Below, in pieces: positions 909 through 19,344 of a DNA stretch of 52,552 nt. Each line of letters starts with the position of its first letter. Within the stretch, counting starts at the first letter, position 1. The position numbers were made by a program, and so were the translations under genes. The stretch spans positions 1 to 52,552 of IMG/VR virus record IMGVR_UViG_3300018080_000030, one strand, 5' to 3'. Origin of the DNA: a virus (taxonomy: Duplodnaviria; Caudoviricetes). The notes beneath the pieces were generated by a model. That model worked only from the letters and a program-made list of their open reading frames with translations. It was not told the DNA's origin and searched no databases.

Positions 909-1237
909 AAAACATCCAGATGGAAGCGGAGGGGCAAAGGCGGGCAACCAGGCCTTAACTGGTTAGGTGGAGCGCGACACCGTTGCAATTATTATTTGTT
1001 AGCTCAATGGTAGAGCAACTGACTTAGGATCAGTAGGTTGTCGGTTCAAATCCGATGCATTACGGCACTGTAAATGCCTATAAAGTCGTCTGCGGACTTT
1101 AAGCGCAGGGTATTCCGAATGACCGAATTTTTAACAGTGAATATCCGAATACCCGACTAACGAGCTGCGGCTCCAGAACATCCAGAGACCGACTAAGAGA
1201 AATCCGAATAACCGCGCCCCTGCACCATCTGGTTTTT
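909..1237 (+). ncRNA. Putative ~330 nt structured RNA with a closing stem, an embedded tRNA-like domain and repeated motifs
   Basis: ccagatgg 916-923 pairs with ccatctgg 1225-1232 and aggggc 930-935 with gcccct 1216-1221, followed by a T-run. No ORF on the + strand; several internal hairpins. Confidence 0.65.
1000..1059 (+). tRNA. tRNA-like domain (anticodon TAG) lacking a normal acceptor stem and CCA
   Basis: D arm gctc/aatggta/gagc, anticodon arm actga/cttagga/tcagt, T arm gtcgg/ttcaaat/ccgat; only about 3 acceptor pairs form. Confidence 0.75.
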
Positions 1238-3602: not shown

Positions 3603-3769
3603 AAACCGAAGAGGAAATTAGGAATGAGCTTAAGCGGGTAAAGTCTGACGAAAGACTGAATTATAAGACTGCAACAGTATCTGAGAATGTGCCTCTTGCC
3701 CTCATACAACTGGAACTTGAGGCCAGAGTAGCTACGCTGAGGTGGGTATTGGCTAATAAGGAGGACTGA
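3599..3769 (+). CDS. Hypothetical protein, 56 aa (not in the ORF track)
   Basis: ATGA overlap upstream and TGATG overlap downstream; MKTEEEIRNELK...LRWVLANKED. Confidence 0.75.
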   Translation: MKTEEEIRNELKRVKSDERLNYKTATVSENVPLALIQLELEARVATLRWVLANKED

Positions 3770-5046
3770 TGATGAAACTGTTAAGCGCTGAAGTCTCGAA
3801 CTTCAGGAAAATAAGAATGGCAAAGGTGGAGTTTCCAAATGATGGAGTAGTGATGATTACTGGTCTCAATGAGACCGGCAAGACTACCTTTCTGAGGGCG
3901 ATAGAGGCTCCGCTGAGAGGTAAAGGTAACCTACCTCATACACTGCTATCTCACGATGAGAAATCTGGCGTGGTTAAGTTAGAAATAGGTGATGAGGATC
4001 GGAAACCACTGTACACAGTAGTCCTCAACTACACAAAGGTAAGAGGACCAATGCTGAAGCTGTTCAAGGCTTCTGGTGAGACTGTGTCAGGTCAGCAGTC
4101 TATACTCAACACGTTTTGGAATACCGTGGCAATGAGGCCATTGGACTTCGCTGAAGCCAAACAGGACGAGCAACGCAGAATACTGTTGGAGTCCAGCATA
4201 CTTCACGTGGGGGAGGATTTTACTGAGAGGACGGGCTTAGCTGAGCCGGAGAAGGACGTGTTGGCACAGCTTAAGCGTAGGGAAGACCACCTGTTTGAGT
4301 TACGCGGAGATGCTAACCGTATAGTGAAGGATTTGAAGGGTAAGCTGGAAGCTTACAAAGATGTCCCTGATGGGCTGGGTGATGTGTCAATGCAAGAGTT
4401 GTTAGATGAGCAAACAAGGCGACAGTCTCTTCAGACCCAGAGGATGTCTATTATCAACGAACTGGCAGGGAAGCGTAGCAGGATTATCGAGCTTGAGAAG
4501 ACGGTAGAGCAGTTGAAGAAGGATGTAGGCGTGCTGGAGGAACGGCTCAGCGCTATCCCAGAGCAAGACCTCGTTGGGATTAAGAATGAGCTTCTTAAGG
4601 CTCAACAGGCAAAGCAGTCCCAGGAGAAGGCTCAACTGGAAAAAGAGTTGGAGGCCGCGGAAAAGGAAGCCGACGAGAATAACAAAGCTCTGGAGGATGT
4701 CAGGGAGTATACAAAATCACTCACAGACACTATGGAGTTACCGTTGCCGGAGCTGGGGTTTGATGAGGACGAAGGCTTTGTGACGTATGAAGGAGAGCCG
4801 CTGGATGCCAGAGGTGACAGTAGGTGGATTAAGATAGGTATGGCTGTGGGAATAGCCACCGGAGCAGAGGTTGACCTCATACTGATAAAACAGGGCAATG
4901 ACTTGGACAAAAATTCTGTGAAGGAGATAATGGAGCTTGCACAAAAGCATGGGAAATTAGTGATAATGGAGAGGGAGAATCCAGTAGATGGAGCGCTGTT
5001 ACTCGAAATTGATGAAGGTGAAGTAAAGGAGGTCCCTGATGAGTAG
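3769..5046 (+). CDS. SMC/Rad50-like ATPase with coiled coil
   Basis: VSNFRKI strand, Walker A GLNETGKT, long coiled coil, degenerate signature and Walker B (LILIKQGNDLD). Confidence 0.8.
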   Translation: MMKLLSAEVSNFRKIRMAKVEFPNDGVVMITGLNETGKTTFLRAIEAPLRGKGNLPHTLLSHDEKSGVVKLEIGDEDRKPLYTVVLNYTKVRGPMLKLFKASGETVSGQQSILNTFWNTVAMRPLDFAEAKQDEQRRILLESSILHVGEDFTERTGLAEPEKDVLAQLKRREDHLFELRGDANRIVKDLKGKLEAYKDVPDGLGDVSMQELLDEQTRRQSLQTQRMSIINELAGKRSRIIELEKTVEQLKKDVGVLEERLSAIPEQDLVGIKNELLKAQQAKQSQEKAQLEKELEAAEKEADENNKALEDVREYTKSLTDTMELPLPELGFDEDEGFVTYEGEPLDARGDSRWIKIGMAVGIATGAEVDLILIKQGNDLDKNSVKEIMELAQKHGKLVIMERENPVDGALLLEIDEGEVKEVPDE

Positions 5047-5561: not shown

Positions 5562-8071
5562 ATCTGGTGCCAGCTATAGGACCAGTTCCTGCTGACATAT
5601 TGCTGGTAGGAGAAGCCCCTGGTAGAGAGGAGGCAGCCAGGGGTGCTCCATTTGTCGGCGAATCAGGGCAGGAACTGACACAGTATTTGAGTAATGCAGG
5701 AATCAACCGTTATTCTCAATGCAGAATTACGAACCTGGTTCCATTCAACCCTCCTAAAAATAGAGACCCAAGTGCTGCTGAGATATTGGAGCACAAGGGC
5801 GCTTTGATAGACGAGATTGTAAATACCAGGCCAAAGGTGATAGGAGCGGTTGGCCGGCTATCTGCATCTACCCTTGCCATGCGTAATGTGGTGATGGAGA
5901 AGGAGCATGGTATCCCATTTATGTTTGGGAGTATACCAGTTGTCCCTATGTATCATCCCGCGGCAGGGTTACGGAGCACATGGCTGATGAGCAGGATACG
6001 GTCCGACTTTGAGCAGCTAAAGTTATGCTTAGATGGAAAGCTGAAGCCTGTAGAATGGGCTGCGCCAGCTATGGACATAGTTGAGCTTACTCCGGACAAC
6101 ATGATTACTGAAGCCTGCTTCTTCTTAACAGAGATGAATAGTACAGGTATAGTAGCTATAGATACTGAGAATCCGGATGACATACCTTGGAGCATACAGA
6201 TTTGTGCTACTCCTGGAACTGTGTTCTTTATTAGAGCCGCTGATATGGTACATCCTTCATTTGCTCGGCAAATCAAAGAAGCCATAGAGAACTCTCTATG
6301 CGTGTTTCATAACGCCAGGTATGACTTGGCTGTGCTGAGGAAGATGGATATACAGCCAACACGGTTTGTGGATACGATGAACATGGCTTACTTGTTGGGT
6401 GAGGTACAGAAGTTGAAGTATTTAGCATACAGACTACTCCATGTCCAGATGCAGGATTATGAAGAGGTGGTGAGAAGTTCTACGGAGTCCAGGGCTTTTG
6501 ACTATCTGACTAAGGTGTTAAGTATGGAGTGGGAAACTCCTGCACCTGTTCTTGAGCTGAAAGGCAGGAAACTACATACCAGAAATCCACAACACATCCA
6601 TACCAAGGTCCGCAGGCTGATGAAAAAGTGGTCTAATGATCCTATGAGTCTGCGGGATAAATGGGTTGACATGAAAGAGAAGGAGTATGTGGAGGCCAGG
6701 ATTGGTGAGATGCCGTTAGGGTCTGTAGCAAAGATTGACTTACAACAGGCTATGAATTATGCGTGCAGGGATGCTGATGTCACCATGAGGGTATATAGGA
6801 TTATGTCTCAGATGCTGAAAGACAGAGGGCTGGAGACCCCTCTTAAAATCGATATGGCTGCTCTGCCAATGGTGGTACAGATGGAGGAAAACGGTTTTCA
6901 ACTGGACTCAGGACACCTTATCCGGTATTCAATTCAGCTCAACCACAGGATGGAGAAGATTAAACATGAGTTGGATTGTCTGCTGCTGGAGAAGGGGTTT
7001 CTCAAAAAGGATGAGTATTATAATCCGAAGTCGCCGAAAGTGGCGATGGAGATGCTAAAACATCTGAAAGTTAGAGTCAAGACCACAGAGGCAAAGTACC
7101 TGATCCCGCATAAGGGCAGGCATAAGGCGATAGCTCTCCACCTGGATTTCAAAAAGCTGGCTAAGCTGGAATCCACATATACTACATCTTTGGTAAAACA
7201 GGTAAAGGATGGGAGGATTCATACCTCACTGCCTATGACTGTTGCTGACACGTGGAGACTGGCAAGCAGGAATCCGAATCTACAAAACATCCCTGTGCGT
7301 GGAATAGATGGTAAGACGATCCGCGAGGCGTTCATTGTTCCGAAAGGATGTAAGCTGCTAAGTGTGGATTACTCACAGATTGAGATGCGGGTAGCCGCAC
7401 ATATGAGCGCTGATGAGCGAATGATAAAAATCTTCCGACAGGGCAAAGACCTGCATAGTATGACCTCAGAGGCTATCTTCGGGGATACCACCTCTGAGCA
7501 TCGCTATCCTACAAAACAAGCAGGTTTTGGAATCTTATATAAGATTAGTCCTATGGGATTACATGAATTACTTGAAGCTGAGGGTGTGAAGAGTTGGACT
7601 GAGGAGAGGTGCGCACAGTTGATCCTTGACTGGTATAAGCAATATCCTGGGATAGCTGCTATGCAGGATAAGTTTGAGTTAGAAGCATTTAATACGGGGA
7701 GAGTGATGGACTTATTTGGTAAGCCTCGCATGGTTCCTGAAGTCTACTCTGCCCATGCCCGGGTGCGTAATGCTGGGGTGCGACAGGCGTGTAATGCCCC
7801 AATTCAAAGTAGTGCAGCCGGTATTTTGAAGAGGGCTATGGCTAAACTATTGCCAGTTTGTGAGATGTTATCGCAAGCTGGACACTTCAAACCACTCTTA
7901 CAGATACATGATGAGCTATTATTCGAGGTAGGTGAGGACATCTTGGACATGGCAGTGGAGTGGATTGTGTCTGCAATGGAAGACTCCGTGAATTTGATTG
8001 TTCCAATTAAATGCGATGTGGAGGTGGGGGATAACTGGGGGTCATTGGAGAGTTATTATGAAGATGGTTAG
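5558..8071 (+). CDS. polA: Family A DNA polymerase with N-terminal family-4 uracil-DNA glycosylase and 3'-5' exonuclease domains
   Basis: UDG4 motifs GEAPG and YHPAA; exonuclease DTE, HNARYD and YACRDA; polymerase motifs NPNLQNIP, DYSQIEMR and QIHDEL. Confidence 0.93.
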   Translation: MNLVPAIGPVPADILLVGEAPGREEAARGAPFVGESGQELTQYLSNAGINRYSQCRITNLVPFNPPKNRDPSAAEILEHKGALIDEIVNTRPKVIGAVGRLSASTLAMRNVVMEKEHGIPFMFGSIPVVPMYHPAAGLRSTWLMSRIRSDFEQLKLCLDGKLKPVEWAAPAMDIVELTPDNMITEACFFLTEMNSTGIVAIDTENPDDIPWSIQICATPGTVFFIRAADMVHPSFARQIKEAIENSLCVFHNARYDLAVLRKMDIQPTRFVDTMNMAYLLGEVQKLKYLAYRLLHVQMQDYEEVVRSSTESRAFDYLTKVLSMEWETPAPVLELKGRKLHTRNPQHIHTKVRRLMKKWSNDPMSLRDKWVDMKEKEYVEARIGEMPLGSVAKIDLQQAMNYACRDADVTMRVYRIMSQMLKDRGLETPLKIDMAALPMVVQMEENGFQLDSGHLIRYSIQLNHRMEKIKHELDCLLLEKGFLKKDEYYNPKSPKVAMEMLKHLKVRVKTTEAKYLIPHKGRHKAIALHLDFKKLAKLESTYTTSLVKQVKDGRIHTSLPMTVADTWRLASRNPNLQNIPVRGIDGKTIREAFIVPKGCKLLSVDYSQIEMRVAAHMSADERMIKIFRQGKDLHSMTSEAIFGDTTSEHRYPTKQAGFGILYKISPMGLHELLEAEGVKSWTEERCAQLILDWYKQYPGIAAMQDKFELEAFNTGRVMDLFGKPRMVPEVYSAHARVRNAGVRQACNAPIQSSAAGILKRAMAKLLPVCEMLSQAGHFKPLLQIHDELLFEVGEDILDMAVEWIVSAMEDSVNLIVPIKCDVEVGDNWGSLESYYEDG

Positions 8072-11009: not shown

Positions 11010-11134
11010 GGGCATGTGGCGGAATTGGTAGACGCACGGGTAATGGCATACCCCGTCTCGGTTGCCACGCAAAAGTGCGCCTTTTAGGATGAGCAAGCGA
11101 ACGCCGAGTGCTGGTTCAAATCCAGCCATGCCCT
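11010..11134 (+). ncRNA. Non-canonical tRNA-like RNA with an expanded variable arm
   Basis: Perfect acceptor gggcatg/catgccc, class II-type D arm, T arm gctgg/ttcaaat/ccagc; no 7-nt anticodon loop, ~52 nt variable arm, no encoded CCA. Confidence 0.75.
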
Positions 11135-11161: not shown

Positions 11162-12043
11162 ATGAGTAAAAAACCAAAAGGCATGTATGAACAGTGCCGT
11201 GGGTGTGGTGAATGGCTGACATTAGAGCAAGTTGATGCAAGTTATAACCAACACAAAGCCCTGTATTGTGATAAGTGTGCTGCTCTTGTTGAGGAGCTTG
11301 AGGCAACAAGAGGCGTTACTGGAACGGGAACCGTCGCTTGCCGCTTGTGGAATACACTAAATGGGTTAGTACAAAGGCACCAGCTTCGTAGTTCTACGGT
11401 AGAGATTAGTTTTTCCGACAACTCCACTACTGAATTTGATTTCGAGTGTGGAAATTGTGGTTGTGATTATGTTGAGCGTCCGTTTAACTATTGCCCTAAT
11501 TGTGGGATAAAAATAAAGTGGGTGGAGAGGAATAAAATTTTGAGTAATAAGCAAAACATACAAACCCAACAAACTAAAACTGGCACAAATAATTTTTGTC
11601 CGGTTGATGCGTTTGTTGGGCAGCCGTCTGTACATTTTTCATCTAAGACCGATGAATGGGAAACACCGAGCGAACTATTCAACAAACTGAATGAAGAATT
11701 TAATTTTACTTTAGATCCGTGTTGCACAAAAGAAAATGCCAAATGCGAGCGGTACTTCACAATTGCCGAGAATGGTTTGGCGCACGACTGGAGCAACGAT
11801 GTAGTTTTTATGAATCCTCCTTACGGTAGAGAAATTGGCAAATGGATTGAAAAAGCATATAGAGAAAGTTTGAGAGGTGCGATAGTAGTTTGTTTAATAC
11901 CAGCAAGAACCGACACTAAATATTGGCACGATTACATTTTTAATAAAGCAGAAATAAGATTTCTGAAAGGGCGAGTTAAATTTAGCAATAAAGGGAGTGC
12001 GCCTTTCCCTTCGGCAATTGTGATTTACGGAATGCCGAAATGA
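11162..12043 (+). CDS. Zn-ribbon region in frame with a phage N6-adenine DNA methyltransferase (phage Dam-like)
   Basis: Four CxxC pairs at the N-terminus; DEWETP, FTLDPC, FMNPPY and IPARTDT in the C-terminal half; alternative TTG start at 11540 with RBS GGAGAGG. Confidence 0.85.
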   Translation: MSKKPKGMYEQCRGCGEWLTLEQVDASYNQHKALYCDKCAALVEELEATRGVTGTGTVACRLWNTLNGLVQRHQLRSSTVEISFSDNSTTEFDFECGNCGCDYVERPFNYCPNCGIKIKWVERNKILSNKQNIQTQQTKTGTNNFCPVDAFVGQPSVHFSSKTDEWETPSELFNKLNEEFNFTLDPCCTKENAKCERYFTIAENGLAHDWSNDVVFMNPPYGREIGKWIEKAYRESLRGAIVVCLIPARTDTKYWHDYIFNKAEIRFLKGRVKFSNKGSAPFPSAIVIYGMPK

Positions 12044-12101
12044 AAAGCAAGGTCTGCCCAACGGACAAGGCTGAGTTGCGAAAAAACAAAGGAATCAAAA
12101 T

Positions 12102-12512
12102 ATGAAGTGCGATGAAGATGGATGCAATAAAGAGGCAAAGTATTGGGCTACTGGTAATGGGATTACACCAACTCACGGAGTATGGTGTGCTGAACATATT
12201 TTGCAATTTATAAAGAATAGGGGGGAATCGGGTCAGCACATGAGTAGAATAATAATACCATCGGCATTTAAAAAAGACGAAGAAGTCGCACAGACTTTTT
12301 CGTCAACTCCAGCCGATTGTTATAATTTTGGGGTGGAAGATGTTGAAAAAGCAATGAAATTAATTGAAGAATATGCAGAAAAAACAAAAAGCAAATACTT
12401 TATTTTAAAAGCTGGGGGAAATGGATTAGAAGCAAAACCCATATCTGAATTTGCGGGCGAACATCTTTGGAGTGGATTAAGGATGATGCCGCCAGATGGG
12501 GGAAAATTATAA
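12102..12512 (+). CDS. Hypothetical protein spanning an attC-like junction
   Basis: Starts in the attC loop, crosses GTTATAA at 12319, and stops in the inverse core AATTATAAC. Confidence 0.65.
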   Translation: MKCDEDGCNKEAKYWATGNGITPTHGVWCAEHILQFIKNRGESGQHMSRIIIPSAFKKDEEVAQTFSSTPADCYNFGVEDVEKAMKLIEEYAEKTKSKYFILKAGGNGLEAKPISEFAGEHLWSGLRMMPPDGGKL

Positions 12513-12649
12513 CGTTAGACGCGTTAGCCGCCGTCATACTTCTTCGTGCTTTTCCGAGGACGGCTGCACGCGATGATTATACTGCCGTTTGTAAATTACA
12601 AAAAACACTAAAATGAGAAAACTGAACTAAAATAAAAAGGAGTTGGGCA

Positions 12650-12886
12650 ATGTCAAAAGCAAAACCGATACCAGTAAGCAAAGCGAAAGAAATTGCTAAT
12701 GAATTTGGATATGAACAAGTAATAATATTTGCACGACTAACTGGAAATGCCGGAATGGAACACATGACCACTTATGGCAAAAACAAAGAACATTGTAATA
12801 TTGCTGCCCAAATAGGGAATTTTCTGAAATATAAAATTATGGGGTGGGTGGAAGAAAACGTGACAGACCACGAAAAGGCAGTATAA
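12650..12886 (+). CDS. Hypothetical cassette protein
   Basis: RBS AAGGAG; stop codon lies within GGCAGTATAAC. Confidence 0.75.
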   Translation: MSKAKPIPVSKAKEIANEFGYEQVIIFARLTGNAGMEHMTTYGKNKEHCNIAAQIGNFLKYKIMGWVEENVTDHEKAV

Positions 12887-12952
12887 CGGTTCATAATAAC
12901 CGGTGCAGGTGGAGAAGATAGACTTTAACTAATAAAAGAGAGGAACAAGATC

Positions 12953-13282
12953 ATGAAGAATTTGAAACAAAGTAGCATTGGCCGGTGGGTGTGGGCATCC
13001 GTGTTCATTATTATGTTAGTTGCCGCCTGTTCCAGCGAGGAAGAAGGTCAAAGCTGGAAGAAACAAAAAACATTCGTTGGCATAATTAAGGATGCCAATG
13101 TAGTGCCAACTTCATTTAATGAATATATCAAAACACAAATAAAAACGGATAGAATGTTTTTTGTTGTGAGGGGTTTGCCCAATGTGGCAATCGGAGACTC
13201 ATGTTTTATTTATAAACGAAATGATGGTAGAAAATATGTCTCGTGGGCAAATACACAAACATTGTATTTCATAGGCAACTAA
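12953..13282 (+). CDS. Putative lipoprotein; signal peptide encoded by the attC-like arm
   Basis: Hydrophobic WVWASVFIIMLV followed by lipobox-like VAAC; stop within GGCAACTAAC. Confidence 0.7.
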   Translation: MKNLKQSSIGRWVWASVFIIMLVAACSSEEEGQSWKKQKTFVGIIKDANVVPTSFNEYIKTQIKTDRMFFVVRGLPNVAIGDSCFIYKRNDGRKYVSWANTQTLYFIGN

Positions 13283-13311
13283 CATAGTATTCAATAACAT
13301 AGGAGAGGTAT

Positions 13312-14073: not shown

Positions 14074-14857
14074 GACCATAGGTAAAAGCATATTAGTCCT
14101 GTTAGGTATCATAATAATCCTTGTAGTATACTTGGCCCTTTGCGTGTCATCTGCGCGGAGTCAGGCGTTGGTGTTGGAAGCCTCGTGCGGCGGGATTTCA
14201 GTAGACAGTATTCCTGTACCGCGATACCAGCCGATCGAGGTTATATGGGGGGACCTTGAGACAGTGATAGGGACGACTACCACAGGAAACGGCTTCCCAC
14301 TTGAAGCTGATAGCAATAAGTTTGTAGTAAATTTAATGATAGACTCGGTGCTTGATTCCGTCGTGATATATGCAATAACAGTGGATGACGTGATTTATCT
14401 CTCTCCGCCGATAGCTGTCAAGATTGTGGGCGCTGGATTCTACAGTGCGGAACTTCCTAAATGGGAGTTATTCTACCATACACCATCGTTTGACACTACT
14501 GCGCTGGACGTTAAGATAACGGTAGGTTGGCTCACACCTACTACTTATATCTCCGGTGCCCCGCTTGACAGCATTCATCACTACGAAGTCTGTGTAAAGG
14601 AGGCTGGTACAGGGACAGAAAGTAACTTTGTCCTATACCCCACAGATGTCATAGCTGTGCAGGGACGGAGTTATGGAGAGTTCCTTGCCAGCCTCAAACT
14701 CAGCACAGACTATATGGTGGCTATGACGGTCACTGCATGGTGGTATGGGCAGGCAGGCGTCGAGAGTGCTTACAGCAATTGGTATGATTTTAAGTCTCCT
14801 GATATACCACAGGCTCCTGGAGAGGTAGCTGTGCAGGAGATAGTTATTGACTTTTGA
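14060..14857 (+). CDS. Exported beta-rich protein (possibly Fn3/Ig-like)
   Basis: Signal or anchor sequence; W..P, Y.V and ES.YSN pattern reminiscent of fibronectin type III. Confidence 0.55.
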   Translation: MMKDKTIGKSILVLLGIIIILVVYLALCVSSARSQALVLEASCGGISVDSIPVPRYQPIEVIWGDLETVIGTTTTGNGFPLEADSNKFVVNLMIDSVLDSVVIYAITVDDVIYLSPPIAVKIVGAGFYSAELPKWELFYHTPSFDTTALDVKITVGWLTPTTYISGAPLDSIHHYEVCVKEAGTGTESNFVLYPTDVIAVQGRSYGEFLASLKLSTDYMVAMTVTAWWYGQAGVESAYSNWYDFKSPDIPQAPGEVAVQEIVIDF

Positions 14858-18029: not shown

Positions 18030-18644
18030 ATGGCAAAAATTAAAGTGAAAACAGCTACTGTAGCTGAAGTCCATGAGGACATAGATAGTCTTCATGCTCA
18101 GCTTATTGCACAAGCTGAGGAGCTTGTGTCTGATGGGACTACACAACAATTAGAGGTATGGGACAAGATGCTTGAACGCGGCTTCTGGAAAGTTCCTGGA
18201 GCTGATGAGGGTAAAGCACAGATGCAGAAGTTCCAGCAGGCTAAACGTATGGGTGAGTTAGCTCTAAACTATAGGGATAAATACCCACACAACAAATTCG
18301 TAACAGTTAAAGGTGTGGAGTATATCTGTAAAAAGTATGCCCTGGTATACGGCCCTGCCCACAGGTTTGTGTCAGAGATTCCTGATAAAAATAAGCAGGA
18401 GATTGCTGACTTCAAAGTTGACGGAAATGATCGGGAAGATGTGGTTATGCAGGTTATTGGTAAGCCAGAAGACTTTGACCTAAGTGGTGATTGGGAAGTA
18501 CGGGGTTACAAAGTTGTAGACGCTGACCCCATCGTATTACAGCCAGTGCGTGGAGGGTTCTTAATCGTAAGTAAGTGGGGTGAAGAGGCTGACATCAAAG
18601 AAGCGAAAGGTGTGGGTCCGTTCAACCCGAAAGATGAATCATAG
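18030..18644 (+). CDS. Hypothetical phage protein
   Basis: RBS AGGAGG; C-terminal DPIVLQPVRGGFLIVSKWGEEA motif. Confidence 0.7.
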   Translation: MAKIKVKTATVAEVHEDIDSLHAQLIAQAEELVSDGTTQQLEVWDKMLERGFWKVPGADEGKAQMQKFQQAKRMGELALNYRDKYPHNKFVTVKGVEYICKKYALVYGPAHRFVSEIPDKNKQEIADFKVDGNDREDVVMQVIGKPEDFDLSGDWEVRGYKVVDADPIVLQPVRGGFLIVSKWGEEADIKEAKGVGPFNPKDES

Positions 18645-19344
18645 AAGACTGATAACCTTGAGAACGTTTACTGCGGCTGACTTGGCCAGCAGTGATAGCG
18701 AGACTTCAGATGATACTGTCGTGATGACCTGCGGGGTATCTAAACAGGGCTACCGCTTCTTTTTTGACAAATGGGTCTCGAAGGATGCGGAGCCTACGGA
18801 GATACTCCGTGAGGTTATTAGGCAAATGATACACTACAAAAGCTCCAGGGGCTTCATCGAAAAGAACAGGTTTGAATCGATAATGAGAACCTGTAGGAAA
18901 CTGGTGCAGAGGGGCTTTTATGGCGACCCGGCCCAAATTGGCAGGGTTATTCGTAGAATAAGTATGGTACCACATTATGGTAGAGAAGGGAAACAGAATC
19001 GTATCGTAGACGGTATCTCACAGGAGCTGAAAGCTCACATGCTTTACTTCCGTGGAGGTGAGGATTGGAATGACGTGCGTAATCAGATCCTGATGTATCC
19101 AGCTGTTTCATTTGATGATATATTGGATACCATTGAAATGTTGATCTCTAAGAGCTATGGACCATCGGTGGACGTGGTAAACCAGCACAGTCCAGCCGAG
19201 GATGTGTATAGCCGGCCTGACAACAAACCATTAACAATTAACGAGGTACTTGCACAGAAAAGGTATAATGTTTGGACAGGAGGCTTTGTAAATAATGGCT
19301 CAAAGAGACGAGAAGCCTGTAGTTACGGAAGAATCACAAAATAG
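18634..19344 (+). CDS. terL: Terminase large subunit, RNase H-like nuclease domain
   Basis: AADLAS...SDDTVV, FIEKNRF, KQNRI and DDILD motifs; directly upstream of the portal gene. Confidence 0.82.
   Translation: MNHRRLITLRTFTAADLASSDSETSDDTVVMTCGVSKQGYRFFFDKWVSKDAEPTEILREVIRQMIHYKSSRGFIEKNRFESIMRTCRKLVQRGFYGDPAQIGRVIRRISMVPHYGREGKQNRIVDGISQELKAHMLYFRGGEDWNDVRNQILMYPAVSFDDILDTIEMLISKSYGPSVDVVNQHSPAEDVYSRPDNKPLTINEVLAQKRYNVWTGGFVNNGSKRREACSYGRITK

What the first reader, a model, noticed from the sequence alone, without database searches (positions are those of the whole stretch)
11564..13286. Phage-borne array of integron-type cassettes without an integrase
Seen: four consecutive units each begin and end with mutually complementary cores that differ between units. 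They are GTTGGGCAG 11615-11623 with CTGCCCAAC 12054-12062; GTTATAATTTT 12319-12329 with AAAATTATAAC 12503-12513; (A)TTATACTGCC 12576-12586 with GGCAGTATAAC 12877-12887; and GTTAGTTGCC 13015-13024 with GGCAACTAAC 13274-13283. Three ORFs stop on the TAA of the inverse core. Between units lie imperfect inverted repeats with single extra bases on one arm, for example ggctgagttgcgaaaaa (12069) with tttttcgtcaactccagcc (12296), and ataataaccggtgc (12893) with gcatccgtgttcattat (12995). Established: this is the signature of attC sites and of cassettes integrated as circles. No tyrosine recombinase is visible, so a host integron integrase acting in trans, or a relic array, is inferred. The cargo looks phage-like (Dam methylase, small hypothetical proteins).
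Basis: partly seen in the sequence, partly recalled or inferred. Interest (0 to 1): 0.9.

Follow-up and report, generated by a model that had tools for sequence, protein, structure and literature searches.

The report
Integron-type gene cassettes in a phage
A complete 52.5-kb phage genome carries what looks like a short array of four integron-style gene cassettes but no integrase of its own, a rare arrangement already described in other phages.

Summary
All four core pairs sit at the stated coordinates, and three ORFs stop on the TAA of an inverse core.

I first read the region as an ordinary low-GC accessory island, because three left cores lie inside ORFs. Comparative data reversed that reading.

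- **Cassette family.** The ORF4 lipoprotein family is a true integron cassette.
  - Metagenome locus L016 places a homologue in an array of at least four attC sites beside an integron integrase (TIGR02249, 271.8 bits).
  - Three other contigs share only a ~399-nt segment, bounded at ...TAAC on both sides, with unrelated flanks.
- **Strand.** The top strand lies opposite the gene.
- **Window array.** Read that way, the window holds four abutting cassettes:
  - A, 13282->12887
  - B, 12886->12513
  - C, 12512->12062
  - D, 12061->11570
  - A, B and C each hold one whole reverse-oriented gene. In D the Dam domain is fused to an upstream phage ORF.
- **Statistics.** Starting from A's end, the chain extends by three cassettes. 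None of 5000 shuffles did this.

Weak points:
- My substitute attC model finds only 1 of the 4 sites.
- attC_C is 270 nt.
- B's R'' reads AAT.
- Nothing shows activity.

The phage has no tyrosine recombinase. Phage CALINs are already published (PMC9892861), so this is a new member of a known kind.

The parts
12887..13282 (-). Cassette A. On the minus strand it runs from TT (13282) to the G of G|TTATAC (12887). It holds the whole ORF4, reverse-oriented.
   Evidence: The start GTTAGTTGCC complements its own R'' GGCAACTAAC. The same architecture appears in homologous cassettes of L016, L013, L010 and L024.
12881..13021 (-). attC_A, 141 nt. Layout: R'' AACTAAC, L'' arm, an 88-nt loop holding ORF4's ribosome-binding site, start codon and signal-peptide N-region, L' arm, then R' GTTATAC.
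   Evidence: It is the best match of attC model R1 in the window: 15.4 bits, full length, minus strand. E is 0.12 over the window, 0.22 over window plus L006, and 0.005 over the 2-kb island. The DNA fold is no better than shuffles (z -0.5).
12953..13282 (+). ORF4, 109 aa. A predicted lipoprotein with a signal peptide, a lipobox Cys26 and a conserved VVPTSFNE core.
   Evidence: Nine metagenome loci and one MAG contig encode relatives. All eight full-length metagenome homologues (the ninth, L017, is cut by its contig end) carry a signal peptide and a Cys. Pfam and PHROGs gave no match.
12513..12886 (-). Cassette B. It holds the whole ORF3 (12650-12886, + strand, 78 aa) and its upstream region.
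   Evidence: Its start TTATACTGCC directly follows the G that ends cassette A, and complements GGCAGTATAA at 12877-12886 / 12577-12586. ORF3 matches phrog_38816 at 2e-29.
12507..12582 (-). attC_B, 76 nt. R'' reads GTATAAT (AAT instead of AAC). It has an imperfect 14/16-nt stem and R' GTTATAA.
   Evidence: The hairpin at 12520-12572 is in the minimum-energy fold, at z -1.4. Model R1 does not find it.
12062..12512 (-). Cassette C. It holds the whole ORF2 (12102-12512, + strand, 136 aa, Cys-rich N-terminus).
   Evidence: The start GTTATAATTTT complements its own R'' AAAATTATAAC over 11 nt. A 92%-identical relative, P0011, covers aa 47-136.
12056..12325 (-). attC_C, 270 nt. Layout: R'' TTATAAC, L'' GGCTGGAGTTGACGAAAAA with two extra bases, a 210-nt loop holding ORF2's 5' half, L' arm, then R' GTTGGGC.
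   Evidence: The gapped repeat scores 15. The long-range stem is in the minimum-energy fold of 12050-12330, at z -3.0 with 0 of 200 shuffles as good. Its length exceeds the usual attC range. Model R1 does not find it.
11570..12061 (-). Cassette D. It holds the Dam methyltransferase domain (aa ~154-293 of ORF 11162-12043).
   Evidence: The start GTTGGGCAG complements its own R'' CTGCCCAAC over 9 nt. Dam homology starts at aa 150-159, just after the core, in nearly all of the 150 listed relatives. Pfam PF05869 matches at 6e-29.
11564..11621 (-). attC_D, a 58-nt hairpin. It has canonical cores (GCCCAAC ... GTTGGGT on the minus strand), a 10-bp outer stem, an internal loop, and an inner stem with one bulged base.
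   Evidence: DNA fold z is -3.3 on the plus strand and -2.5 on the minus strand. It is the only site in the island that fits strict RYYYAAC..GTTRRRY spacing. Model R1 gives only 3.3-3.6 bits. It is translated in frame as the linker of ORF 11162-12043.
11162..12043 (+). Fusion ORF, 293 aa. An N-terminal CxxC zinc-ribbon part of normal GC, a linker encoded by attC_D, then the Dam domain.
   Evidence: There is no in-frame start codon near the start of the Dam domain.

Best explanation
**What it is.** Window 11564-13283 is a cluster of four integron-type gene cassettes without an integrase (a CALIN). It sits in the early/replication region of a complete phage genome with direct terminal repeats.

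**Strand and boundaries.** The top strand of the recombination sites is the window's minus strand. On that strand each cassette begins with TT after a G and ends with its own attC:

| Cassette | Span | Gene | attC |
|---|---|---|---|
| A | 13282->12887 | lipoprotein ORF4 | 141 nt |
| B | 12886->12513 | ORF3 | 76 nt |
| C | 12512->12062 | ORF2 | 270 nt |
| D | 12061->11570 | Dam domain | 58-nt hairpin |

**Gene orientation.** The genes run opposite to the attC top strand. They are therefore co-oriented with the phage's own genes and can be transcribed with them.
- The 5' parts of ORF4 and ORF2 lie inside their attC.
- attC_D is translated in frame and fuses a phage zinc-ribbon ORF to the cassette's Dam domain.

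**How it got there (inferred, not shown).** Either a host integron integrase inserted the cassettes in trans at a GTT site and then at the resident attC, or the block was copied from a host array.

**Current state (inferred).** At least some sites are probably decayed, given AAT in B and the oversized C.

**Likely functions (inferred from family names only).** Orphan Dam methylation would protect against restriction. A lipoprotein may act at the cell envelope.
For: 1. **The signature is real in true arrays.** 15 of 15 cassettes of the integron in Vibrio phage Va_90-11-286_p16 have 8-11 nt of complementarity between cassette start and own R''.

2. **The ORF4 family is a cassette.**
   - L016 has an integron integrase (TIGR02249, 271.8 bits, cut-off 265).
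   - It also has attC sites of one sequence family at 5772-5665, 4828-4706, 4322-4211 and 3964-3842. Model R1 gives 21.3 and 18.2 bits for the first two; the other two were read from the sequence.
   - It forms a chain of 7 strict GTT..AAC pairs.
   - The ORF4 homologue lies antisense in one cassette, with its start and signal peptide inside the attC.

3. **The cassette moves.** L013, L010 and L024 share only about 399 nt at about 90-97% identity. The shared part begins right after ...TAAC and ends at CGCTAAC, and the flanks are unrelated. The shared unit is the gene plus the palindrome on its 5' side. This fixes the top strand as the one opposite the gene.

4. **The repeat is conserved with changed sequence.** An inverted repeat links signal-peptide nt 42-60 to the stop region in several lineages:
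   - window: p<0.0005
   - L013: p<0.0005
   - L016: p=0.018
   - L009: p=0.06
   - L010: p=0.08

5. **The window fits.**
   - Model R1 was built from 15 Vibrio attC sites. It finds all three attC sites that Qi et al. describe for phage TJE1, at 22-28 bits.
   - Its best window match is exactly 12881-13021 on the minus strand, at 15.4 bits.

6. **The chain extends from A.** From the end of A it runs through B, C and D. Of 5000 shuffles, 0 reached 3.

7. **Strict pairs are enriched.** Strict GTT..AAC pairs less than 600 nt apart number 3 in the 1.7-kb island and 2 in the other ~51 kb.

8. **The region looks acquired.** GC falls to 0.37-0.41 across the array, against 0.44-0.50 in the flanks.

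9. **No recombinase.** PF00589 gave 0 matches.
Against: - **Model detection.** Model R1 finds only 1 of the 4 proposed sites. attC_D scores 3.3-3.6 bits, and B and C get nothing meaningful. Two attC sites are the usual minimum for calling a CALIN. The curated IntegronFinder and HattCI models could not be run.
- **attC_C length.** At 270 nt it is about twice the usual upper length of attC sites.
- **B's inverse core.** B's R'' reads AAT where the conserved AAC is expected.
- **Folding.** attC_A and attC_B fold no better than shuffles, at z -0.5 and -1.4. Three real 127-nt Vibrio sites also gave only z 0 to -1.3.
- **Bulge asymmetry.** My reading of the pairings points to the minus strand for A and C but to the plus strand for B and D.
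- **No outside support for B, C or D.**
  - 0 of 6 ORF3 homologues in cultured phages have such flanks.
  - 0 of 3 Dam homologues have them.
  - ORF2 has only one partial relative, with no DNA available.
- **ORF4 family is not uniform.** Four ORF4-family loci (L011, L012, L014, L015) lack the repeat.
- **Gene orientation.** All four genes run opposite to the usual cassette orientation.
- **No variants seen.** No variant, circle or rearranged form turned up. The other runs hold the phage at depth 2-4 only.
- **Blind tiling.** The blind tiling test was not significant at the low threshold.
Confidence: 0.68

Rival explanations
1. Only cassette A (ORF4 with its palindrome) derives from an integron cassette. 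The other three core pairs are chance inverted repeats in an AT-rich, horizontally acquired accessory island of ordinary phage genes.
For: - Outside validation exists for A only.
- Model R1 finds only attC_A.
- ORF3 and Dam homologues in other phages are ordinary, tightly packed genes without such flanks: 0 of 6 and 0 of 3.
- The region has other strong inverted repeats outside the scheme, at 11757/12011 and 13062/13152.
- The blind tiling test was not significant at the low threshold.
Against: - B starts at the very base where A ends and has a 10-nt complement 300 nt away. Only 22 of 5000 shuffles give even one such extension, and none gives three.
- The junction sequences of C and D resemble real sites of L016: AACAATCGG... 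and ...CCGTTGGGC.
- Three consecutive stop codons fall in TAAC.
Confidence: 0.17
2. The inverted repeats are RNA or single-strand structures that close each cistron into a domain, affecting mRNA stability or translation. They are conserved in the ORF4 family for that reason, and the modules move by some recombination other than integron integrase.
For: - Each repeat-bounded unit folds as RNA better than shuffles: z -3.05, -3.85, -2.07 and -4.97.
- The ORF4-family repeat keeps pairing while its sequence changes.
Against: - Those windows were chosen to end on the repeats, so the low z values follow from that choice.
- On a fixed grid of 300-nt windows, the island's z values (+0.56 to -1.56) are ordinary. 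This compares with a mean of -0.73 and sd of 1.32 over the 81 windows computed, which cover 1-24300 only.
- An RNA helix does not explain several observations:
  - the GTT/AAC ends in every lineage;
  - the module boundaries at TAAC in L013, L010 and L024;
  - the integron integrase next to the L016 array.
Confidence: 0.07
3. Everything is coincidence plus post-hoc selection. The region is an ordinary low-GC moron island with no integron-derived part.
For:
- There is no integrase.
- Three left cores fall inside ORFs when read on the plus strand.
- The strict RYYYAAC/GTTRRRY consensus fits only one core.
Against: - The strict consensus also misses most real sites: only 3 pairs in a 13-kb true array.
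- The conditional chain test is also independent of it.
Confidence: 0.05

Closest known systems
Clusters of attC sites lacking an integron integrase (CALINs) in phage genomes (Qi, Rajabal, Ghaly, Tetu, Gillings 2023, PMC9892861)
   Same: - Cassette-like units with attC sites sit in phages that have no intI, including virulent phages.
- DNA methyltransferases are among the cargo.
- The authors suggest that GTTRRRY-like motifs at the boundaries helped the elements into phage genomes by off-target or illegitimate recombination.
- The paper reports 17 CALINs in 10,705 phage genomes, and 5 of 6 tested sites recombined with IntI1 (sections 2.1 and 3.4 and passages read).
- My model R1 finds three sites in TJE1 at the places the figure legend describes.
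   Different: - Here only one of four sites reaches a comparable model score.
- All genes are reverse-oriented to the sites, and two genes overlap their attC.
- One attC is translated as a protein linker.
- One site is 270 nt.
- Activity is untested.
- The paper's supplementary tables hold the attC coordinates and could not be opened, so my TJE1 and P12002L sites are inferred.
Sedentary chromosomal integron arrays, with the fragment carried by Vibrio phage Va_90-11-286_p16 (MK672802) as the example
   Same: - Cassettes are bounded at G|TT.
- Each cassette's first 8-11 nt complement its own R'' in 15 of 15 cassettes.
- attC sites are imperfect palindromes with bulged bases on the 5' arm of the top strand, and 8 pairs covary.
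- Stop codons often fall in ...TAAC.
   Different: - Vibrio sites are about 127 nt and homogeneous in sequence. The window's four sites differ from each other in sequence and length.
- An intI is present in that record.
The integron of metagenome locus L016 and the arrays of L013, L010 and L024
   Same: A homologous lipoprotein cassette with the same layout:
- reverse gene;
- stop codon next to the cassette start;
- start codon and signal peptide inside the attC;
- cores complementary.
   Different: - L016 has its own integron integrase and GC-rich sites of one family.
- Protein identity to ORF4 is only 28-44%.
- DNA similarity is limited to a 66-90-nt core in L010, L011, L013 and L017; L016 and L024 gave no DNA match to the window.
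Phage moron or accessory-gene islands with orphan Dam methyltransferases
   Same: - Low-GC block of small genes between replication and packaging genes.
- The Dam domain is 59-75% identical in protein to Dam genes of Staphylococcus and Lysinibacillus phages.
   Different: Morons are not bounded by G|TT cores and attC-like palindromes. Dam and ORF3 homologues in those phages have no such flanks.

Membership tests
Integron cassette array / CALIN | Two or more attC sites within about 4 kb, detected by a curated attC covariance model (IntegronFinder, or HattCI+Infernal at >=20 bits) | not testable with these tools
   - The curated models are not available here.
- As a substitute I used model R1, built from 15 Vibrio attC sites.
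  - It finds 1 of the 4 proposed sites: 12881-13021, minus strand, 15.4 bits.
  - On controls it finds 3 of 3 TJE1 sites at 22-28 bits, one P12002L site at 11.3 bits, and 2 of 4 L016 sites at 18-21 bits.
Integron cassette array / CALIN | attC anatomy: R'' (..AAC), L'', loop, L', R' (GTT..), as an imperfect palindrome with extra bases on one arm | tested here: inconclusive
   - The AAC...GTT frame is present in A, C and D. B has AAT.
- L-arm pairings with 1-3 extra bases are present in A, B and C, and D is a clean hairpin.
- The side carrying the extra bases agrees with the minus strand in A and C only. This is my own reading of the pairings.
Integron cassette array / CALIN | attC length about 57-141 nt (range recalled, not from a call) | tested here: inconclusive
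   A is 141 nt, B 76 nt and D 58 nt, all within range. C is 270 nt and outside it.
Integron cassette array / CALIN | The first bases of each cassette complement its own R'', a trace of the circular form | tested here: met
   - Window: 9, 11, 10 (outermost pair missing) and 10-13 nt.
- Positive control: 15 of 15 cassettes at 8-11 nt.
- The chain from A extends by 3, with 0 of 5000 shuffles matching.
Integron cassette array / CALIN | The same cassette occurs in different arrays with boundaries at G|TT | tested here: met
   - Met for the family of cassette A. L013, L010 and L024 share about 399 nt bounded at TAAC, with unrelated flanks.
- Not testable for B, C and D, which have no relatives with DNA context.
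Complete integron | An integron integrase (intI) adjacent to the array | tested here: not met
   PF00589 gave 0 matches in the complete 52,552-bp record, while all 14 control genomes matched. The homologous cassette in L016 does lie beside an IntI.
Integron cassette array / CALIN | The sites are recombined by an integron integrase | not testable with these tools
   This needs an attC x attI assay. Contigs of three other runs show no rearranged form, but depth is only 2-4.
Integron cassette array / CALIN | One, usually promoterless, ORF per cassette, oriented with the attC top strand | tested here: not met
   One ORF per cassette holds for A, B and C. All four genes, however, are on the strand opposite the inferred top strand. 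The validated relatives in L016 and L013 show the same reversed layout.

The most novel reading that the evidence does not exclude
Integron cassettes build new phage genes here.
- A host integrase acting in trans stacked four reverse-oriented cassettes into a phage that has no integrase.
- The attC sites themselves are used as coding sequence:
  - one attC stem encodes the hydrophobic core of a lipoprotein signal peptide, as in the homologous cassettes of L016 and L013;
  - one 58-nt attC is translated as the linker that fuses a phage zinc-ribbon protein to a cassette-borne Dam methyltransferase.
- At least the two canonical sites (A and D) would still be recombinogenic, so the phage can trade cassettes with host integrons during infection.
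Probability: 0.2. Interest if true: 0.65.

Novelty: new member of a known kind. Interest (0 to 1): 0.5.

Why it matters
**Why the case is useful**
- Integrons are best known for stockpiling resistance and defence genes in bacteria. Phages carrying attC clusters were reported only recently and are rare: 17 in 10,705 genomes (PMC9892861).
- This is an uncultured, complete phage. One of its cassettes can be tied by homology and exact boundaries to a real integron and to three other arrays. That is stronger evidence of cassette traffic between integrons and phages than model scores alone.

**Two further points**
- It shows a layout in which genes overlap, and are partly encoded by, their recombination sites.
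- It shows a possible gene fusion through a translated attC.

**If the sites are active**
- The phage would be a vehicle for cassette exchange.
- The orphan Dam cassette would be an anti-restriction gene acquired in this way.

Tried and rejected
**Superseded reading**
- Up to I read the region as an ordinary accessory island with chance repeats.
  - Three left cores lie inside ORFs.
  - ORF2's relative P0011 and ORF4's relative P0013 run across the cores.
- Reading the array on the minus strand removed this objection.

**Tests that proved insensitive**
- The strict RYYYAAC..GTTRRRY scan gave one site in the island, but only 3 in a true 13-kb array.
- A rule-based 'AAC:GTT-closed hairpin' scan gave 70 sites in the true array, of which about 10 are real. 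It is not specific.
- A relaxed chain finder built long chains in negative controls and was dropped for the strict version.

**Folding**
- DNA folds of the inter-unit stretches were mostly unremarkable.
- The RNA folds are biased by how the windows were chosen.

**Inversion (phase switch) idea**
- For ORF4, the inverted form hits stops quickly in the window, L013 and L010. I rejected it.

**Relatives of the phage**
- Nothing for the helicase, polymerase, ORF2 or ORF4 in viral contigs.
- Nothing for ORF2 in metagenome contigs.
- The helicase's best relative is 36% identical.
- tblastn of ORF2 and ORF4 against the phage records found nothing.
- L004 and L005 (ORF3 relatives) show no flanking repeat.

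**Sequencing runs**
- Runs X2, X3 and X4 hold near-identical short contigs at depth 2-4, with no rearrangement.
- One joint, 11343->13739 in X4, has only 21-nt sides and unlike flanks, so I do not trust it.
- Parts without cover say nothing.

**A broader attC model**
- A MAFFT alignment of 13 sites from four sources gave no consensus structure. No second model was built.

**Other points**
- The Dam-internal repeat 11757/12011 is only 8 of 13 complementary in a Staphylococcus phage homologue. It remains unexplained.
- The supplements of PMC9892861, which hold the attC coordinates, are closed. The positions of the TJE1 and P12002L sites are my inference from model hits and the figure legend.
- The Loot et al. 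preprint on insertion outside att sites (10.1101/2022.09.11.507474) was seen only as a search listing with the start of its abstract.

Full report
**The record.** The window is a whole virus record of 52,552 bp.
- It has direct terminal repeats, estimated completeness of 100 and no tyrosine recombinase (PF00589: 0 matches).
- All long ORFs lie on the plus strand.
- The region of interest follows a family A DNA polymerase and an AAA_25 helicase. It precedes the terminase, portal and tail genes.
- Its GC is 0.37-0.41, against 0.44-0.50 on either side.

**The observation.**
ORF2, ORF3 and ORF4 each stop on the TAA of ...TAAC.
- Short-range inverted repeats are enriched. There are 11 of >=9 nt against 4.1 in dinucleotide shuffles, and 3 of >=13 nt against 0.02. 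Codon shuffling and a Markov model gave similar figures.
- A blind test for abutting repeat-bounded units was unremarkable at a low threshold. It was unusual only at a threshold chosen afterwards.

**First reading, later abandoned.** Several results pointed to an ordinary accessory island.
- On the plus strand three of the four left cores fall inside ORFs: the linker before the Dam domain, the middle of ORF2, and the lipobox of ORF4.
- Relatives of ORF2 (P0011, 92% identity) and ORF4 (P0013, 53% identity) run across those points.
- The strict attC consensus fits one core only.
- Folds of the inter-unit stretches were mostly ordinary.
- The phage has no close relatives that could show indel boundaries.

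**Controls.**
- Qi et al. 2023 (PMC9892861; sections 2.1 and 3.4 and passages read) report 17 attC clusters without an integrase in 10,705 phage genomes. Methyltransferases are among the cargo, and 5 of 6 tested sites were active with IntI1.
- I took the integron in Vibrio phage Va_90-11-286_p16 as a positive control.
  - Its 15 aligned attC sites have the expected structure, with 8 covarying pairs.
- All 15 cassettes show 8-11 nt of complementarity between cassette start and own R''.
  - The strict consensus found only 3 pairs in this true array, so failing it means little.
- Covariance model R1 was built from these 15 sites. It gave:
  - three sites in phage TJE1 at 22-28 bits, each just after an ORF, as that paper's figure legend describes;
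  - one site between the two methyltransferase genes of P12002L, at 11.3 bits;
  - in the window, a best match at exactly 12881-13021 on the minus strand. It scores 15.4 bits with E of 0.12-0.22, or 0.005 within the island.
  - The best hit away from any known or proposed site, over about 177 kb searched (window, the non-array part of L006, L007, L008), was 12.9 bits.

**The turning point.** A profile search of metagenome contigs with ORF4 returned nine loci.
- The family is a ~100-aa lipoprotein with a conserved VVPTSFNE core.
- In several lineages an inverted repeat of GTT...AAC type links the signal-peptide coding region (ORF nt 42-60) to the stop codon. The arm sequences differ between lineages:

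| Locus | Left arm / right arm | p |
|---|---|---|
| window | TATGTTAGTTGCC / GGCAACTAACATA | <0.0005 |
| L013 | GTTAGCGGTAGTGCT / AGCATTACCGCTAAC | <0.0005 |
| L016 | GTTCGGCCT / AGGCCGAAC | 0.018 |
| L009 | TTTAATCA / TGATTAAA | 0.06 |
| L010 | GTTAGTGGTA / TACCGCTAAC | 0.08 |

- Four loci have none.

*L016 is a real integron.*
- An ORF at 5846-6910 passes the curated cut-off for integron integrase (TIGR02249, 271.8 against 265 bits).
- To its left, on the opposite strand, lie attC sites of one sequence family at 5772-5665, 4828-4706, 4322-4211 and 3964-3842.
- Their cassette-specific cores form a chain of seven strict GTT..AAC pairs.
- The ORF4 homologue sits antisense inside one cassette (4216->3848).
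  - Its stop codon lies six bases from the cassette start.
  - Its start codon and signal peptide lie inside the attC.

*The cassette occurs in three other contexts.*
- Three further contigs (L013, L010 and the MAG contig L024) share only about 399 nt at about 90-97% identity.
- The shared part begins right after ...TAAC and ends at CGCTAAC. Everything outside is unrelated.
- The shared unit is the gene plus the palindrome on its 5' side. This is one canonical cassette if the top strand is the one opposite the gene.

**Re-reading the window on the minus strand.** The region resolves into four abutting canonical units.

| Cassette | Span | Start | Own R'' | attC | Content |
|---|---|---|---|---|---|
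| A | 13282->12887 | G\|TTAGTTGCC | GGCAACTAAC | 141 nt, ending ...GAACC G | whole ORF4 |
| B | 12886->12513 | TTATACTGCC | GGCAGTATAAT | 76 nt | whole ORF3 |
| C | 12512->12062 | TTATAATTTT | AAAATTATAAC | 270 nt | whole ORF2, 5' half in the attC loop |
| D | 12061->11570 | TTGGGCAG | CTGCCCAAC | 58-nt hairpin 11621->11564 (z -3.3/-2.5) | Dam domain |

- The L arms of attC_C pair over 17 bp with two extra bases (z -3.0).
- Dam has no start codon of its own. It is read through the hairpin in frame with a phage zinc-ribbon ORF.
- Dam homology begins at aa 150-159, just after the core, in nearly all of the 150 listed relatives. Many of them carry unrelated N-terminal extensions.
- Taking A's end as a fixed starting point, the chain rule finds three more cassettes. 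Of 5000 shuffles, none reached three, 3 reached two and 19 reached one.
- Strict GTT..AAC pairs closer than 600 nt number three in this 1.7 kb and two in the remaining ~51 kb.

**What remains weak.**
- Only A has outside validation, and only A is found by my substitute model.
- ORF3 relatives in six cultured phages, and Dam relatives in three, are ordinary packed genes without such flanks.
- B's R'' has AAT.
- attC_C is far longer than usual.
- The side of the bulged bases is not consistent across the four sites.
- A and B fold no better than shuffles, as do long Vibrio sites.
- All genes are reverse-oriented.
- Other sequencing runs hold the same phage only at depth 2-4 and show no variants.
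- Whether the sites are active, and how the array entered the phage, is inference.

**Verdict.**
- Its interpretation is supported with corrections to strand, cassette limits and gene orientation.
- Phage-borne attC clusters without an integrase are already in print, so this is a new member of a known kind. Its twist is coding sequence that overlaps attC sites and a possible fusion through a translated attC.
- I put about 0.68 on the four-cassette array and about 0.17 on 'cassette A only'. The rest goes to RNA structure or chance.

Noticed in passing
window 11010-11134 (+): Rfam's tRNA model matches at 39.7 bits. The acceptor, D and T arms are intact, but a 64-nt stretch sits where the anticodon arm should be. 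ARAGORN does not call it. It lies between the helicase gene and the zinc-ribbon-Dam ORF.
   Followed up: partly
window 992-1063 (+): An ordinary tRNA-Leu gene (anticodon tag), found by both ARAGORN and Rfam.
   Followed up: no
window 14401-14700 and 18601-18900 (+): These are the most structured 300-nt windows of the first 24 kb on a fixed grid, with RNA fold z of -5.5 and -4.1. They are far stronger than anything in the island. A palindromic hairpin lies at 14521-14542.
   Followed up: no
window 11757-11769 / 12011-12023 and 13062-13075 / 13152-13165: Two perfect 13-14-nt inverted repeats lie inside the Dam domain and inside ORF4. They are not part of the cassette scheme. The Dam repeat is only 8 of 13 complementary in a Staphylococcus phage homologue. 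Runs X2 and X3 show a 1-nt deletion at 13065, in the A-run of the ORF4 repeat, at depth 2.3.
   Followed up: partly
L014 3896-4201 and 6985-7296: One AT-rich 20.9-kb metagenome contig carries both an ORF4 homologue and a Dam homologue (45% identity), 2.8 kb apart on the same strand. Nothing else in the 8.1-kb stretch fetched is shared with the window. Its ORF4 copy lacks the flanking repeat.
   Followed up: partly
L011 242-525 versus L010 4050-4333 and L013 1187-1470: L011 shares with L010 and L013 only the stretch between the two cores (85% and 83% identity). Its signal-peptide N-part and upstream palindrome differ. The ORF4 unit therefore also exists with a different attC attached.
   Followed up: partly
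window 3769-5046 (+): A 425-aa ORF matches phrog_1499 (5.5e-46). It also matches, more weakly, an SbcC-like subunit of a palindrome-specific endonuclease (phrog_77, 5.6e-10). This may bear on how the phage tolerates hairpin-forming DNA.
   Followed up: no
L004/L005 3620-4202: In two IMG/VR contigs the ORF3 homologue (73% identity) appears as the C-terminal part of a longer reading frame, split across two frames. This suggests a fusion or a frameshift.
   Followed up: no
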